A stretch of 64,000 bases of DNA from positions 32,612,001 to 32,676,000 of the forward strand of contig NC_043012.1 in NCBI RefSeq assembly GCF_006345805.1, given 5' to 3'. The notes beneath the pieces were generated by a model that was given only the letters and a program-made list of their open reading frames with translations, was not told the DNA's origin and made no database searches. Source of the stretch: Octopus sinensis (taxonomy: Eukaryota). Shown here piece after piece: positions 395 to 6,500 of this stretch (position 1 is the stretch's first letter; each line of letters opens with the position of its first letter). The translations under genes and the position numbers were made by a program.

Positions 395-812
395 GGATCT
401 TTTTGGTTTGAACGGCAGTTTTTTCTAGCAGTGTCATATGAAATTGTCACCCATAATCATGACTCTAGTATCGATCTATTGCGTTTCAATCTGTTTTAGA
501 GTTAGGGGTGGGGGGAAGGGTATCTTTTTTTCTTTAGAAATGTAAATAAACCCAATCTATTTCTTAAACGAGGGGCATATTCATACAGCACAGAATGTTT
601 TTTTTTTACCTCAATAGACGTCATTGATTGGTTGAAATTGCAGAAATTGAAGAAAAAAACCCCAACAAATATCTTACAAACTACAGAATTTTCTCAAGAA
701 AGCCAAGAGAAAAAGATGTTTTATAAACACATTCTACCAGTATACGAAGTTTAAAAGTGTTTAGTTACGTGGAAATTATTTTAAAAAACTGCCGTTCAAA
801 CCGAAAAGATCC
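395..812. mobile_element. Non-autonomous TIR DNA transposon (MITE), GG termini, about 8-bp TSD (Merlin/MULE-like)
   Basis: 29-bp TIR GGATCTTTTTGGTTTGAACGGCAGTTTTT vs AAAAACTGCCGTTCAAACCGAAAAGATCC (1 mismatch); flanks AACCCAAT (387-394) and AACCCAAC (813-820); a one-ended copy lies at 9547-9628. Confidence 0.85.
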
Positions 813-1494
813 AACCCAACTATCTTTTATTATTACTTATTTTAGCGGACACATTACATAATGTAGTCTGAAGTGCGTTATATCTGAAGAATATTAAAAA
901 ATGGGTCAGTCTGTCACAACGTCATTGTTTAGCACCAGGTTGGCTCCAATGCAGTTGACTTATGACCCCCTGGCATTCTACCCATAACCATTCCTTCTTT
1001 TATTTTTCATGTTGTACTCTGCATTATACTATACAATGTGTTCTTTTCAATAAAGAAAAAATATGGTAAGATGGGAAATGAAGAAGATTTTGGTTTAAAA
1101 AGAAGAGACGAGATAAGAGATAATCACGTATAGATTGTGGCATGAATATAGGTGTATGGCTCTTAAAAAACATGGATCCACGAATTGAATACAGCAAATA
1201 GTTTAAGACAAAAATAGTTAAGATAACAAATATAAATTACAAAACGTTTAATCGTGGAAGAAATACAAATTTTGACCCTTGAAAAAATCTTTCTAATCCA
1301 TTTAAATTATTGTAATTTTTGAAAACTTTTGAGTTCCTCTTCCTTCAAGCTAACAATACTGGAATCACGTTAATTATAATCATGTCTTTAGAAGATACAT
1401 TTAGCTGAGATTCTTATAAAAAAAAATAATAATTTCTCTGTTGAGATTACATATTTGAACTATTCCAACATAACAACAACACAATGCAATAAAT

Positions 1495-2019
1495 TCAATG
1501 CTGAAGTGTTTCTTTATCAAACATATATTCACCGAGGCCTTCGCCCAACTGCTTCAATCTCGAAATGTAATCAGAGATTTTCTTGATGTTTTCAACTTGT
1601 TTTCCAAGGGCGATCTTCTTCAGGAACCCAATCAGCTGAGGATCGCCGTTCTTTTTAGCGCACAAAACCAGCTTCAGAAATTGCTGGTTGATATTTTTCT
1701 CAACGACGAGCGAATATTCCATGGCCGAAGCACCAGAATCCCAAAACGAAGTCTCCGGTTCGTCGATATTCTGCAAGACAACGCGACCACCACGTTTGTT
1801 TTGGTACTCCATCAGTTTGTCCGCTTGATGGAGATGCTGACGGTTTAGCTGCTCGAAGAAGAGATGGAATCCCTTCAGAGCAACATCACTCCTGTCGTAA
1901 TGTGCAGCCTGGCACTGGTTCACGTAGGCTGACTTGAGTAACACGTTGATGCATTCGTTCAAAGTCTCCTCGCAATTGCGATGAAAATTCTGTCGAGCAG
2001 ACATTTTCCTCAGGTTCAT
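1495..2019 (-). CDS. Intronless ferritin-like protein (divergent soma/H-ferritin homolog, predicted ferroxidase-inactive), probable retrogene
   Basis: 174-aa intact ORF with ferritin motifs RQNFH, DRSDVALKGF, KLMEYQNKRGGRVVLQ, EKNINQ, GLGEYMFDKETL; colinear with H-ferritin through helices A-D; alternative start Met6 (MSARQNF). Confidence 0.93.
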   Translation of the reverse strand: MNLRKMSARQNFHRNCEETLNECINVLLKSAYVNQCQAAHYDRSDVALKGFHLFFEQLNRQHLHQADKLMEYQNKRGGRVVLQNIDEPETSFWDSGASAMEYSLVVEKNINQQFLKLVLCAKKNGDPQLIGFLKKIALGKQVENIKKISDYISRLKQLGEGLGEYMFDKETLQH

Positions 2020-2026
2020 GCTGTTT

Positions 2027-2051
2027 GGTCACGTGACCTACCCACATCCGG
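2027..2051. promoter_or_regulatory. Perfect 12-bp palindromic E-box (CLEAR/USF-type GTCACGTGAC) plus ETS-like CCGGATGTG just upstream of the ferritin-like ORF
   Basis: GGTCACGTGACC at 2027-2038; CACATCCGG at 2043-2051; function inferred only from motif match and position. Confidence 0.4.
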
Positions 2052-2095
2052 TGAAGGAGGTTCGGAGACTCTCTCAGAAATAATCCTCCACCCCT

Positions 2096-2100
2096 ATTTT

Positions 2101-2143
<43 letters not shown>

Positions 2144-2180
2144 TTTTTTATTTATTTATTATTTATTTATTTATTTATTT

Positions 2181-2212
<32 letters not shown>

Positions 2213-2272
2213 CTTATTTACTTACTTACTTATTTATTTATTTATTTATTTATTTACTTATTTATTTATTTA
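2096..2272. repeat. (TTTA)n microsatellite
   Basis: Direct reading. Confidence 0.95.
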
Positions 2273-2458
2273 TCTGTATTTACTGTACTTTAATACACGT
2301 AAACACGTGTTTATGCTTTTATTTATTTACGCAACGACGATTCCAAAATATTGCCGTTAATTATCTGTTAAATATCAGTTTTATTACTATTACCTAAATT
2401 TTAGGAATTTTTCATGTTCAAGTATCTGTAATAACGATTGTTGAGGTCAGGGTACTTG

Positions 2459-2645
2459 GGCGATCCTTCGGTATAGGTATCGTGAATACCGGAAGTGGCT
2501 TTGTTTACATTTCTGAAGATAACAGAAACCCTTTTCTCCCACCCCTAACCTTAACCCTAACCCTAACCCCCCCCCCATATATAGAAAAAAAAACACTTTC
2601 TTGAAATGTATCCGGTACTTCCGGTACCTATACCGAAGTTACGCC
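2459..2645. mobile_element. Small fold-back/MITE-like element with internal (CCCTAA)n telomere-like repeats
   Basis: CTTCGGTATAGGTA (2466-2479) inverted to TACCTATACCGAAG (2625-2638); CCCTAA repeats at about 2543-2567; no clear TSD. Confidence 0.55.
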
Positions 2646-4725
2646 ACGGTGATCTCCTAATGTACCACAAAATACTATACTCCAGAGTATCCTGGACTCA
2701 ATATGGGCAGCATGTGCAGCATCAGTGCCACGTAAACAAAAAAAGAAGAACCGCCCCAAAAGGGCAATTTGGGAAACTTCAGCGGTCCGACTTGCCAGGA
2801 AGGAACGTCGAACTGCTGAACAGGAATACAAGTTGCATAAATCAGACACCAACAGGAAGAAGCGGAATAAGTGACAAAAAATGCAGTGCTTGAATTTGAA
2901 CAGTGCATAGCAGCCAATCCTGACAGCAGGGTTTTCTGGAAATATGTGCATTCAAAGCAGAGACCTCACTCTCCAGTGGGCCCTCTTCGCAACCCTCACA
3001 CAAACCAGATCACTGACGACCCCAAGGAATGCGCAGAACTCATTGCCGAGTGCTATGCAAACATATTCACTGTTGAAAGTCAAAATGTACCATCTTCACC
3101 ATCACTAACAGCAAACTCCATAACAACTATGGAATTTACACCTGCAATGCTGCGACGTCACCTTCAAAATAAGCGCAACTATGCCTCCCCTGGTCTCGAT
3201 GGAGTTACATACATGCTTCTCAAACGTGGCAGGCACTTCCTTTTACACCAGCTTTCTATTTTCTTCCAGTACTGTCTCAACAATGGTGCTACTCCGGAGC
3301 AGTGGAAAACTGCCAGTGTCATTCCTCTGTTCAAAAAGGGTGACCGCACATCACCTGTCAACTATCGCCCAGTCAGTCTCACTAGCTGTATTGCAAAACT
3401 GATGGAATCGTGTGTCAGAGAAACACTCTGGAACTTCTGGAGCTCTCACAGTCTCATCCGACCCTCACAATATGGATTTGTCCCTAATCCAGCTGCAGTG
3501 ACCAGCTTGTCGAGTTCCTTGAGGACATTACTCAGATCACTGACAGTGGCTCATGGGTGGATGTTGTCTACCTTGACTTTGCTAAGGCTTTCAACTCTGT
3601 GCCACACAAAAGGGTTATGGTGAAACTCTCTGCAATGGGTGTGGGGGATGACCTTTTTAACTGGTTGAAATCCTTCATCCTCAGCCAAAAGGAGGTAGTC
3701 ACAGTTCTAGGACAGCACTCTACACCATATGAGATGTCATCGGGTGTACCACAGGGATCTGTCCTTGGTCCCCTCCTGTTTGTGGCATACATTAATGACA
3801 TAGATGCCAATTTAAAGAATGCCACAGTATTGAAATATGCAGACGACATCAAGCTGTACCTTAAAATCAAGAGGACTGATCCTGATGTCTACAACTCTTT
3901 CCTGCAATCAGACCTAGACACAATGCAGCAATGGATCACAGACTGGCAACTGAAACTGGCTGTGGACAAGTGTACCACCATGCATTTTGGGAGAAAAAAC
4001 CCTGCGTCCACATACTCCCTCCACAACACTGATATCAAGAAATCCTCTTGCGAGCGTGACCTAGGCATCACTGTCAGCAGTGATTTGCGTTGGACAAAGC
4101 ATATCTCTAAAATTGTCAAGAAGGCCGAGGGTGTCTTGGCATCACTCAGCAAGACTTTTGTTAGCCGCTCTCCAGCCATCTATTTAAAACTGTATACAGC
4201 TATGGTACGACCACACTTGGAATTCGCATCATCAGTTTGGCATCCCTATCTTGCTCAGAACATTGACCTCCTGGAATCTGTCCAGAGACGTGCAACCAAA
4301 CGCATACCCTCCATCAGACACCTACCATATTCTGAGCGCCTTGTTTCCCTGGGCATGGATTCACTGAAGCTCCGGCGTCTGGCGACGGACTTGGTAAACA
4401 CCCACAAGGTTATCAACCACCTCACCAACAACAACACTGAACACCTTTTTGATCTCCATGTGTCTAACACACGTGGACATGCCTACAAAGTCAGAAAACA
4501 ACACAGCTCCCATGACTTTCGGAAACATTTTTTCACGCTCAGAGTTGCTGAAGCATGGAATAAACTGCCTGCGTCAGTTGTTGACTGCCATGGCACTGCA
4601 TCCTTTAAGGCCCTCATGCTTTCCGAAATCCGCCGAAACTACACCTGATTATATATACACTTTAGATGAGTTGTAGTGCACCTGAGCACTGTACACAATT
4701 ATTATTATTATTATTATTATTATTA
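2646..4725 (+). mobile_element. 5'-truncated CR1-clade LINE (ORF2 reverse transcriptase with one frameshift near 3490), short 3' UTR, (ATT)n tail
   Basis: Motifs SPGLDG, WKTASVIPLFKKGDR, NYRPVSLTS, QYGF in the 2871 ORF; then YLDFAKAF, GVPQGSVLGPLLF, YADD, RPHLEFASSVW in the 3557-4648 ORF; no APE domain seen. Confidence 0.92.
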
Positions 4726-4729
4726 AAAC

Positions 4730-6500
4730 ACATTTTTTGTTCGGAAAAGGGGTAGGGTGGGGTGGAACTATCGCCCCCCCTCCCCGCCATTTTCATGGGT
4801 AAAATTTTTTTGGCTAATGTTTACAATATTATTCGGAAACGAAAAAAAAAAATTAATACGACGGTTGTAAATAAAATGTGTATGAAACGAATATGAAAAC
4901 AGAAACGCGCGTGCAAAGCAATAGGGGTAGGGGTGGGGAGAGGACTTTCGGAAAATTCCCAAGATCCGAGTTTTTCCTTCATATCCTTTAGGAAAATGGT
5001 TTTTTTTTTTTTTAAATGAAATTTTGTATAAATACCTTTCATATGGCATAGATTGTGATTATAAAGAAATTTGTGGGTAAAATCTTTTCCGAGGGAGTTT
5101 AATAATAATAATGAAATTATTGTATACAGTGCTCAGGTGCACCACAACTTGTCAAAAGTGCGTATAGAGTATATGCAGTAATGTACAAATGTCTGGAAAG
5201 CGAGCAATGTATGAGTCAGATACATGCTTGTGTGTGTATGGAGGGGAGAAAGTCAGGTGTAGTGTTGGCGAATCTCAGAAAGCATGGAAGTTTTGAAGGA
5301 TGCAGTGCTCCGACAACTAACAACTGACGCCGGCAGTTTGTTCCATGCTTCAGCAACTCTCAGCGTGAAAAAAATGTTTCCTAAAGTCATGGGAGCTGTG
5401 CTGTTTTCTGACTTTGTAAATATGTTCACGGGTGTTAGACGGGTGGTGTTTGAAAAGGTGCTCAGAGTTATTGTTTGTAAGATGGTTAATAATTTTATGT
5501 GTGTCTGCCAAGTCAGCTTCCAGACGTCAGAATTTCAATGTGTCCATGCCCAGGGAAGTAAGGCGTTCAGAATATGGCAAATGCCTGATGGAGGGTATTC
5601 TTTTGGTTGCACGTCACTGGAGCGCTTCCAGACGATTGATATCCTGGGCAAGATAGGGGTTCCAGACCGATGATGCAAATTCCAGGTGAGGTCTTACCAT
5701 AGCTATATAAAGCCACAGATAGATAGTCGGAGAGCGGCTCACAAAGGATTTGGTGAGTGATGCCAAGACACCCTCAGCCTTCTTGACAATATTAGCGATG
5801 TGTTTTGTCCAACGCAAATCACTGTCAACAATAACACCCAGGTCACGTTCACATGGAAGACTTTTTGAGATTAGTGTTGTGGAGGGAGTAGGTGGACGCT
5901 GGGTTTCTCCTCCCAAAATGCATGGTGGTACATTTGTCCACAGCCAGCTTGAGTTGCCAGTCCATGATCCACTGCTGCATTGTGTCCAGGTCTGCTTGCA
6001 ATAGAGATCTATAGTGTACAGGATCTGACCTCTTTATTTTGAGGTACAGCTTGATGTCATCTGCATATTTCAGCACTGTGGCATTCTTTAAGTTGGCATC
6101 TATGTCATTAACATATGCAACAGATAAGAGGGGGCCAAGAACAGATCCCTGTGGTACACCAGATGTCATCTCATAGGGTGAAGAGTTCTGTGACAACCTC
6201 TTTTTGGCCGAAAATAAAGGACTTCAACCAGTTATAGAGTTCGTCTCGTCTAGAGTTGGGAAAGAACTTTCGAAAAATTCAGACGGTCCGATTTTTTCGC
6301 CCATAACTTATAATGAAATTTGTAGGAGAAATCCTTTCCAATCTTGTGAATTTTCCGAAAGTCCTCTCCCCACCCCGTTGCTTTGCGCGCATTTTTATTT
6401 TCATATTCGTTTCGTACACATTTTTTTACACCCATTGCACCATTTTGTTTTGTTTTCGCTTCTAGGTAATATTGTTATCATTAACCAATTTTTTTGCTGT
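4730..6500. mobile_element. Degenerate long-inverted-repeat element interrupted by a CR1 insertion
   Basis: About 4865-4965 (AAAATGTGTATGAAACGAATATGAAAA...GGGGAGAGGACTTTCGGAAAATTCCCAAGAT) is the reverse complement of about 6342-6430. Confidence 0.6.
5101..6195 (-). mobile_element. 5'-truncated CR1-clade LINE, frameshifted, longer 3' UTR variant
   Basis: Peptides GVPQGSVLGPLL, YADDIKLY, RPHLEFASSVWNPY close to those of the 3557 ORF; (ATT)n tail at 5101. Confidence 0.92.

What the first reader, a model, noticed from the sequence alone, without database searches (positions are those of the whole stretch)
1495..2019. Intact intronless ferritin-fold gene that has lost essentially all iron-handling chemistry
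Seen, by manual alignment to human H-ferritin (numbering coincides): ferroxidase ligands E27>L, Y34>N, E61>Q, E62>H, H65>Q and E140>K, with only E107 and Q141 kept. The 3-fold channel is also changed: H118>V, C130>I, D131>G, E134>K, so it is neutral or basic. The positions of the L-chain nucleation glutamates read Q57, R60, Q61 and H64. The structural motifs, full length and open frame are nevertheless preserved. Known: animal cytosolic ferritin genes usually have introns, and mammalian FTHL17 is a precedent for an intronless ferroxidase-inactive ferritin. Inference: this could be a retrogene kept as a non-iron nanocage, a dominant-negative or regulatory subunit, a nucleic-acid-binding protein or a structural protein, i.e. 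a cephalopod parallel to FTHL17.
Basis: partly seen in the sequence, partly recalled or inferred. Interest (0 to 1): 0.72.

Follow-up and report, generated by a model that had tools for sequence, protein, structure and literature searches.

The report
Octopus ferritin stripped of iron chemistry
This octopus has an intron-free ferritin gene that is read into polyadenylated RNA and has a counterpart in argonauts; its protein lacks most of the residues ferritins use to take up and oxidise iron and likely still builds a ferritin-type cage for an iron-independent job, as 'atypical' ferritins of other animals are thought to do.

Summary
Confirmed and real. Window 1495-2019 (-) encodes an intact, intronless 169/174-aa ferritin. 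It has lost 5 of 7 ferroxidase ligands and the acidic 3-fold pore (D131G, E134K, E140K); three intron-bearing paralogs keep all 7. It is not a young pseudogene: orthologs exist in Octopus bimaculoides (95%) and Argonauta hians (76%) with the same replacements. Contigs from two studies end in a non-templated poly(A), 4 of 4 listed ORF differences are synonymous, and losses concentrate on iron sites (8 of 11 vs 18 of 78, p=0.002). The 5' end has no IRE-like hairpin; two paralogs have one. Assembly surfaces are kept, and the ferritin 2-fold dimer is predicted, probably from likeness. Best reading: an octopod retrogene encoding an iron-free cage subunit, closer to artemin and sponge 'atypical' ferritins than to FTHL17. 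Function and tissue are unknown. It evolves about twice as fast as canonical ferritins. Iron-dead ferritins are a known, widespread class, so this is a new member of it; the conserved lysine-lined pore is the most novel point.

The parts
1495..2019 (-). Intronless ORF of an atypical, ferroxidase-dead ferritin (174 aa from ATG at 2019; 169 aa from the second ATG at 2004)
   Evidence: fold; no joints in contigs laid over it
1233..1494 (-). 3' UTR, about 260 nt, ending at the poly(A) site near 1233-1237
   Evidence: X14 and X8 (two studies) end at 1237 with a loose poly(T) on + that the genome does not hold (genome sequence)
1247..1252 (-). ATTAAA, likely the polyadenylation signal, about 10-15 nt before the tail
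   Evidence: sequence; role inferred from position
2020..2043 (-). Short 5' leader: contig 5' ends at 2030, 2034, 2043, 2043; two other contigs run on to 2082 and beyond. No IRE-like hairpin
   Evidence: contig ends cannot prove a start
2028..2037 (.). GTCACGTGAC palindrome (E-box; CLEAR-like, name recalled), only copy in the window; possible promoter element
   Evidence: function untested; organism B contigs differ at 2028 and 2032
2095..2273 (.). TATT microsatellite directly upstream of the gene

Best explanation
The gene is an intronless, polyadenylated ferritin paralog shared by Octopus and Argonauta whose protein lacks the ferroxidase centre and the acidic iron-entry pore; it likely arose as a retrocopy and likely assembles into its own iron-free ferritin cage that serves an iron-independent protective (artemin-like holdase or scaffold) role. 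Shown: intact ORF, ligand loss, orthologs with the same replacements, poly(A) contigs, synonymous-only listed differences, no IRE-like hairpin. Inferred: retroposition (all three paralog introns absent, different chromosome); repacking of the empty metal site with bulkier or neutral residues (Q23C, E27L, V110I, L114F, H65Q; H62-E107 could pair as K62-E107 does in L chains, recalled); cage assembly; translation uncoupled from iron; the protective role. About 0.85 that it is a functional non-ferroxidase ferritin; about 0.45 for the iron-free homopolymer role.
For: Orthologs P0123 (95%), P0002 (93%), P0003 (76%) share L27, N34, H62, Q65, G131, K134, K140 and form a 100/100 clade on a long stem. 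The Argonauta-Octopus split is fossil-constrained to at least about 29 Ma (PMC12682272, passage). Among columns at least 90% conserved in 106 canonical ferritins, 8 of 11 iron-handling positions changed in all four orthologs versus 18 of 78 others (Fisher p=0.002). Kept columns include the AB loop, the RGGR loop, N111/Q112/L115, K146 and helix E. Four of 4 listed ORF differences in laid contigs are synonymous (chance 0.002-0.006). Neutral simulation at about 75% aa identity: 0.08 stop-free, 0.007 free of stops and frameshifts under an assumed indel:substitution ratio of 0.05. Poly(A) in two studies. AF2 pLDDT 92; Foldseek TM 0.93-0.97 to ferritins. Four copies fold to the ferritin 2-fold dimer interface: score 0.73, best of 3 controls 0.00, runs agree in at least 56% of contacts, partner pLDDT at least 87; the mark was reached by 21 of 30 solved pairs and 0 of 23 single chains (microbes; eukaryotes 17 of 29, animals 7 of 16); ferritin dimers are solved, so this shows likeness only. 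IRE-like CAGUGN hairpins lie upstream of paralogs C22a and C22b, none in window 900-4000 on the gene's strand. Artemin is a precedent for losing all three iron sites and acting as a chaperone (PMC9742257).
Against: No assay, tissue or protein-level detection. No run is on record as RNA; expression rests on the poly(A) ends. The gene evolves faster than canonical ferritins (Octopus-Argonauta 75.7% vs 87.7% and 85.8%). Octopus-Argonauta identity is not significantly higher at canonically conserved columns (73 of 89) than at variable ones (29 of 40; p=0.25). The synonymous count is small and comes from close relatives, and hid 8 rows. The protein lacks artemin's C-terminal extension (229 aa vs 169-174). 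Three K134 around a homomeric 3-fold axis would repel unless an anion is bound, which favours mixed cages. The parent gene is unresolved (AU p=0.32 and 0.07), and no poly(A) remnant or UTR homology to the paralogs marks the retroposition. Paralog C7 also shows no IRE-like hairpin near exon 1.
Confidence: 0.5

Rival explanations
1. Modulator subunit: it co-assembles with the canonical ferritins and lowers their iron uptake, by diluting ferroxidase centres and by K134/K140 neutralising partner D131/E134 in mixed 3-fold pores.
For: Most assembly-surface residues equal the canonical ones. Ferritin chains 54% identical are interchangeable, and neutralised 3-fold pores cut iron storage without changing the cage (PMC7692541, passages). 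No IRE, so it could be made when the canonical chains are repressed.
Against: Only 40-46% identical to own paralogs. Clade-wide changes at positions recalled as inter-subunit (S59N, R60, R63L/V, K87E, D44S/N/C, T153S/N, R157Q) could favour self-assembly. Co-expression in one cell type is not shown.
Confidence: 0.27
2. Repurposed for another metal or for redox work (Cu/Zn buffering in a hemocyanin animal, or a thiol switch) using C16, C23, C120, H62, E107.
For: C23 and C120 are invariant in 4 of 4 orthologs and seen in 0 of 112 other rows at 23 (Q 111, H 1) and not among the four commonest residues at 120. H62, E107 and Q141 are invariant. Artemin's activity is thiol-regulated.
Against: C16 is common in canonical ferritins (58 of 112). 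Geometry could not be measured (no coordinates on hand). A basic pore would repel cations.
Confidence: 0.1
3. A slowly decaying, weakly constrained retrocopy that is transcribed but dispensable.
For: About twice the canonical rate; no significant extra conservation at canonically conserved columns (p=0.25); the stop-free chance alone is 0.08 in simulation.
Against: Intact, ungapped frames in 4 of 4 aligned orthologs; 4 of 4 synonymous differences; targeted rather than random loss (p=0.002); derived residues fixed across Octopus and Argonauta.
Confidence: 0.08
4. An L-chain-like partner that helps iron nucleation and cage stability in heteropolymers.
For: Ferroxidase dead with E107 kept opposite a His at 62, reminiscent of L chains (recalled).
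Against: L chains keep the acidic 3-fold pore (D128/E131 in L numbering) and nucleation glutamates; here these are G131/K134 and Q57/R60/Q61/H64.
Confidence: 0.05

Closest known systems
'Atypical' signal-peptide-less invertebrate ferritins, e.g. sponge HdF2 and EmF2 (PMC8395497)
   Same: No signal peptide, low identity to human H, many replacements in iron sites (HdF2: E27Q, E61S, E62K, H65S, E134A), no IRE, function unknown; 18% of non-insect invertebrate ferritins in that survey.
   Different: A separate octopod clade; intronless; pore and transit residues turned basic (G131, K134, K140) and fixed across Octopus and Argonauta; pI 7.0-8.6 against 5.87 for HdF2. Whether that paper's Table S1 already lists the O. 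bimaculoides ortholog could not be seen.
Artemin of Artemia (PMC9742257)
   Same: Ferritin homolog that lost ferroxidase centre (keeps 1 of 7), 3-fold channel and nucleation site; extra cysteines.
   Different: Artemin is 229 aa with loop L' and helix F filling the cavity and has shown chaperone activity; this protein is normal length with no extension and no assay.
Mammalian FTHL17 (PMC7760355)
   Same: Ferroxidase-inactive ferritin paralog beside normal ferritins; intronless status recalled.
   Different: FTHL17 changes only E62K and E61D; it is germline/X-linked and partly nuclear. Here 5 of 7 ligands and the pore are gone; tissue and location unknown; independent origin.
Mitochondrial ferritin FTMT
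   Same: Intronless ferritin gene (reference title in PMC7760355).
   Different: FTMT keeps ferroxidase activity and has a targeting leader (recalled); here an in-frame stop lies 3 codons above the first ATG (open frame 177 aa) and no upstream splice was seen.
Molluscan soma ferritins (own paralogs C7, C22a, C22b; PDB 6LPE, 5WPN, 7VT2)
   Same: Fold, length, assembly motifs, 40-50% identity.
   Different: These keep 7 of 7 ligands, have three introns, pI 4.9-5.3, and two have IRE-like hairpins.

Membership tests
Animal ferritin (maxi-ferritin) fold | Four-helix bundle plus helix E; Pfam PF00210 | tested here: met
   (TM 0.93-0.97)
Animal ferritin (maxi-ferritin) fold | Assembles as a 24-mer cage | tested here: inconclusive
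   Only the 2-fold dimer interface was predicted, probably from likeness (0.73 vs control 0.00); assembly-surface residues kept
H-type / soma ferritin | Ferroxidase centre E27 Y34 E61 E62 H65 E107 Q141 | tested here: not met
   2 of 7 kept (3 of 7 in Argonauta)
H-type / soma ferritin | Acidic 3-fold channel H118 D131 E134 | tested here: not met
   V118 G131 K134
H-type / soma ferritin | 5' IRE | tested here: not met
   No CAGWGN hairpin in window 900-4000 on the gene's strand; found for 2 of 3 paralogs by pattern. Rfam listed no IRE for any of the 4 loci, positives included
L-type ferritin | Nucleation glutamates and acidic pore kept | tested here: not met
   Q57 R60 Q61 H64; G131 K134
Atypical ferritin (PMC8395497 definition) | [quoted passage not shown] | tested here: met
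   40-42% to human H chains; 9 of 11 iron positions replaced; N-terminus has no hydrophobic leader (by eye; no SignalP run)
Atypical ferritin (PMC8395497 definition) | Does not bind iron | not testable with these tools
   Predicted from residues only
Artemin | C-terminal extension (loop L', helix F), 229 aa | tested here: not met
   169-174 aa, ends after helix E
Artemin | Chaperone activity | not testable with these tools
   Needs assay
FTHL17 | E62K with other ligands kept; mammalian germline gene | tested here: not met
   E62H plus four more ligand losses; FTHL17 itself was not placed in a tree
Mitochondrial ferritin | N-terminal targeting leader and active ferroxidase centre | tested here: not met
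   Stop 3 codons above the first ATG; no joints; ligands lost
Functional retrogene | Parent introns absent; unlinked locus | tested here: met
   Three GT-AG introns in each of 3 paralogs on C7 and C22; none here on C16
Functional retrogene | Genomic poly(A) remnant, target-site duplication, identifiable parent | tested here: inconclusive
   No UTR homology; parent unresolved; third codon positions near saturation
Functional retrogene | Transcribed and under purifying selection | tested here: met
   Poly(A) contigs in two studies; 4 of 4 synonymous, intact orthologs; no codon-level dN/dS across genera was possible

The most novel reading that the evidence does not exclude
An octopod-specific, charge-reversed ferritin cage: the cation pore and transit path have become lysine-lined (G131, K134, K140 in 4 of 4 orthologs; helix D net +3 to +5 against -5 to -1 in 106 canonical ferritins), so the cage admits and stores anions (phosphate, polyphosphate, nucleotides or RNA) rather than iron, or shuts the pores of mixed cages as a natural iron brake.
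Probability: 0.13. Interest if true: 0.8.

Novelty: new member of a known kind. Interest (0 to 1): 0.45.

Why it matters
Iron-dead ferritins recur across animals and, apart from artemin and partly FTHL17, have no known function; PMC8395497 names this as an open question. This gene is a clean case: short, intronless, expressed, conserved between Octopus and Argonauta, with active paralogs in the same genome as controls. It is easy to express and assay. If its basic pore selects anions or gates mixed cages, it would be a natural counterpart of engineered positively charged ferritins and a new way to regulate iron in a copper-blooded animal. If it is one more iron-free cage, it adds an independent origin to a known pattern.

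Tried and rejected
No squid, cuttlefish or Nautilus ortholog appeared or 36 (next hits 46-53%, canonical or unrelated atypical types); these searches list only the top 120-150, most rows are unnamed, and absence is not shown. No RNA holder was listed as such. X1 and X15 held the words but no piece was listed over the gene (a filter drops records). Lack of contig cover beyond the poly(A) site and contig depths (5 to 737) were not used as evidence of level or tissue. Parent-gene tests were inconclusive; shared residues with C22b seen by eye were not upheld. A whole-cavity charge reversal was rejected: once positions 61, 62, 131, 134, 140 are removed, helices B+D are +3 to +5 against a canonical mean of +3.6. 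A ferritin-like 11-aa hit just outside the window (L011) lies in what reads as a common repeat (E=2.4). Stop-containing ferritin hits on small contigs were considered as neutral pseudogene controls and dropped, since the one read in full has tiny introns. Literature searches found no description of this gene or its accessions; the library holds only CC-licensed PMC papers and bioRxiv. Octopus proteome and transcriptome papers (passages) mention ferritin, but the one peptide shown matches paralog C22b; the argonaut eggcase ferritin could not be identified. The supplement of PMC8395497 could not be read. Three look-ups of earlier findings returned nothing. Co-assembly with a canonical subunit was not modelled.

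Full report
Observation. The window holds one ferritin ORF, 1495-2019 on the minus strand, 174 codons, without stop or intron. It matches Pfam Ferritin at 2.8e-22 and solved marine invertebrate ferritins at up to 4e-49. AlphaFold2 gives helices A-E at pLDDT 92, and Foldseek TM-scores to ferritins are 0.93-0.97. Of 123 aligned proteins from the first searches, 103 keep 11 of 11 of these iron-handling residues; the window protein keeps 2. Positions 57 and 130 vary in invertebrate ferritins and are not informative.

Genomic setting. The genome holds three spliced soma-type ferritins (C7, C22a, C22b), each with three GT-AG introns at the same places and 7 of 7 ferroxidase ligands, plus more divergent spliced ferritins on C14. 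The window gene lies on C16, crosses all three intron positions without a break, and is 40-46% identical to the three paralogs. Loss of three introns at an unlinked site is best explained by retroposition, but this is inferred: no UTR homology remains and trees do not resolve the parent. The flanks are repeats: a TATT microsatellite, LINE reverse-transcriptase fragments and a high-copy element at 395-814.

Orthologs. Searches returned an O. bimaculoides protein (XP_014786113.1, 95%), an unnamed Logan protein (93%) and an Argonauta hians protein (GAB1605196.1, 76%), the named ones annotated only as soma ferritin or soma ferritin-like. All four align without internal gaps and share L27, N34, H62, Q65, G131, K134, K140, C23 and C120; Argonauta keeps E61. 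They form a 100/100 clade on a long stem. A profile search of 1.84 billion representatives and a second homolog search found nothing closer than ordinary ferritins. The gene therefore predates the Argonauta-Octopus split, calibrated at no less than about 29 Ma (PMC12682272, passage). I did not see the orthologs' DNA, so their intron state is unknown.

Expression. Twenty of 22 listed runs from 9 studies hold the stretch; none is on record as RNA. Of 8 runs laid, 6 gave contigs over the ORF with no joints inside it. Two, from different studies, end at 1237 with a poly(T) run on the plus strand that the genome lacks, about 10-15 nt past an ATTAAA: a poly(A) tail on the minus-strand mRNA. Four contigs begin at 2030-2043 and two run on past 2082; contigs cannot fix a start. 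No IRE-like hairpin lies upstream, whereas C22a and C22b have CAGUGA-loop hairpins; C7 showed none near exon 1. Tissue cannot be read from these runs.

Selection. All 4 ORF differences listed in the laid contigs are synonymous (expected fraction 0.20-0.28; chance 0.002-0.006), while the UTRs show more than a dozen substitutions and several indels. One search hid 8 rows, so the list may be incomplete. Loss is targeted: among columns at least 90% conserved in 106 canonical ferritins (6 of 112 rows set aside for lacking a ligand), 8 of 11 iron-handling positions changed in all four orthologs, against 18 of 78 others (p=0.002). Neutral drift to about 75% identity leaves the frame stop-free in 8% of runs, and free of stops and frameshifts in 0.7% under an assumed indel rate. 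Against this: the gene diverged faster between Octopus and Argonauta (75.7%) than C22a (87.7%) and C22b (85.8%), and its conservation is not significantly concentrated at canonically conserved columns (73 of 89 vs 29 of 40, p=0.25).

How it likely works. E62K alone is reported to abolish ferroxidase activity (PMC7760355, passage), and neutralising the 3-fold Asp/Glu slows iron uptake without altering the cage (PMC7692541, passages). With 5 of 7 ligands, the pore and the nucleation patch changed, iron storage by a homopolymer is very unlikely. Residues at the assembly surfaces are kept. Four copies fold into the ferritin 2-fold dimer (0.73 vs best control 0.00; contact agreement at least 56%; pLDDT at least 87; mark reached by 21 of 30 solved pairs and 0 of 23 single chains in microbes, 7 of 16 animal pairs), which shows likeness to solved ferritins and not binding. 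The pI rises from 4.9-5.3 to 7.0-8.6. Helix D turns from -5..-1 to +3..+5, but this comes wholly from the iron-path positions. I favour an iron-free homopolymeric cage with a protective or scaffolding role (about 0.45-0.5), then a modulator of mixed cages (0.27), another metal or thiol role (0.10), slow decay (0.08) and an L-like role (0.05). None of these was tested directly.

Comparison with what is known. It meets the definition of 'atypical' invertebrate ferritins, which make up 18% of non-insect invertebrate ferritins in one survey, nearly all lack an IRE, and have unknown function (PMC8395497; abstract, passages and section 2.2 seen; supplement unreadable, and it may list the O. bimaculoides ortholog). 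My own sample agrees that such losses are common: 46 of 257 well-covered proteins keep 5 or fewer of the 11 residues, 5 of them from this clade. It works like artemin in what it has lost (PMC9742257, passages) but lacks artemin's extension, so it is not an artemin. It is not FTHL17-like in detail, not L-type and not mitochondrial. An IRE-less ferritin isoform is also reported in a chiton (PMC7850002, passages). Searches found no paper on this gene.

Verdict. A real, expressed, conserved octopod ferritin paralog that has given up iron chemistry: a new member of a known, poorly understood kind. Interest 0.45. The boldest open reading, an anion-selective or pore-gating cage built on the fixed G131/K134/K140, has about 0.13 probability and would merit 0.8.

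Noticed in passing
L028:1200-1790 (G000:C8320); similar hits on C7755, C12676, C2502, C12622, C7757, C10159: Divergent ferritin genes on small contigs; L028 has GT-AG introns of only about 21-25 nt, like those of dicyemid parasites of cephalopods (recalled). These contigs may be contamination in the assembly.
   Followed up: partly
G000:C14 50.19-50.50 Mb (L022, L024, L026, L027, L029): Cluster of several divergent, spliced ferritin genes (39-67% to a gastropod ferritin per exon), possibly secreted or yolk type; not reconstructed.
   Followed up: no
L008 / L020 (G000:C7 86.85-86.87 Mb): Paralog C7 keeps all 7 ligands but has E140H and shows no IRE-like hairpin near exon 1.
   Followed up: partly
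window 2028-2037: Perfect GTCACGTGAC palindrome 9 nt before the first ATG, sole copy in the window; resembles a TFEB/MITF CLEAR site (recalled); changed in organism B contigs.
   Followed up: partly
window 3129-4648 and 5284-6169: Broken LINE-type reverse transcriptase frames upstream of the gene (RVT_1 hits for the two frames in 3129-4648; the second region by likeness).
   Followed up: partly
window 395-814: High-copy interspersed repeat with sharp ends, seen as thousands of contigs in laid runs; not classified.
   Followed up: no
L019:1153-1285: Long inverted repeat around a TA microsatellite in the first intron of paralog C22a (MITE-like); gives spurious Rfam miRNA hits below gathering scores.
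   Followed up: no
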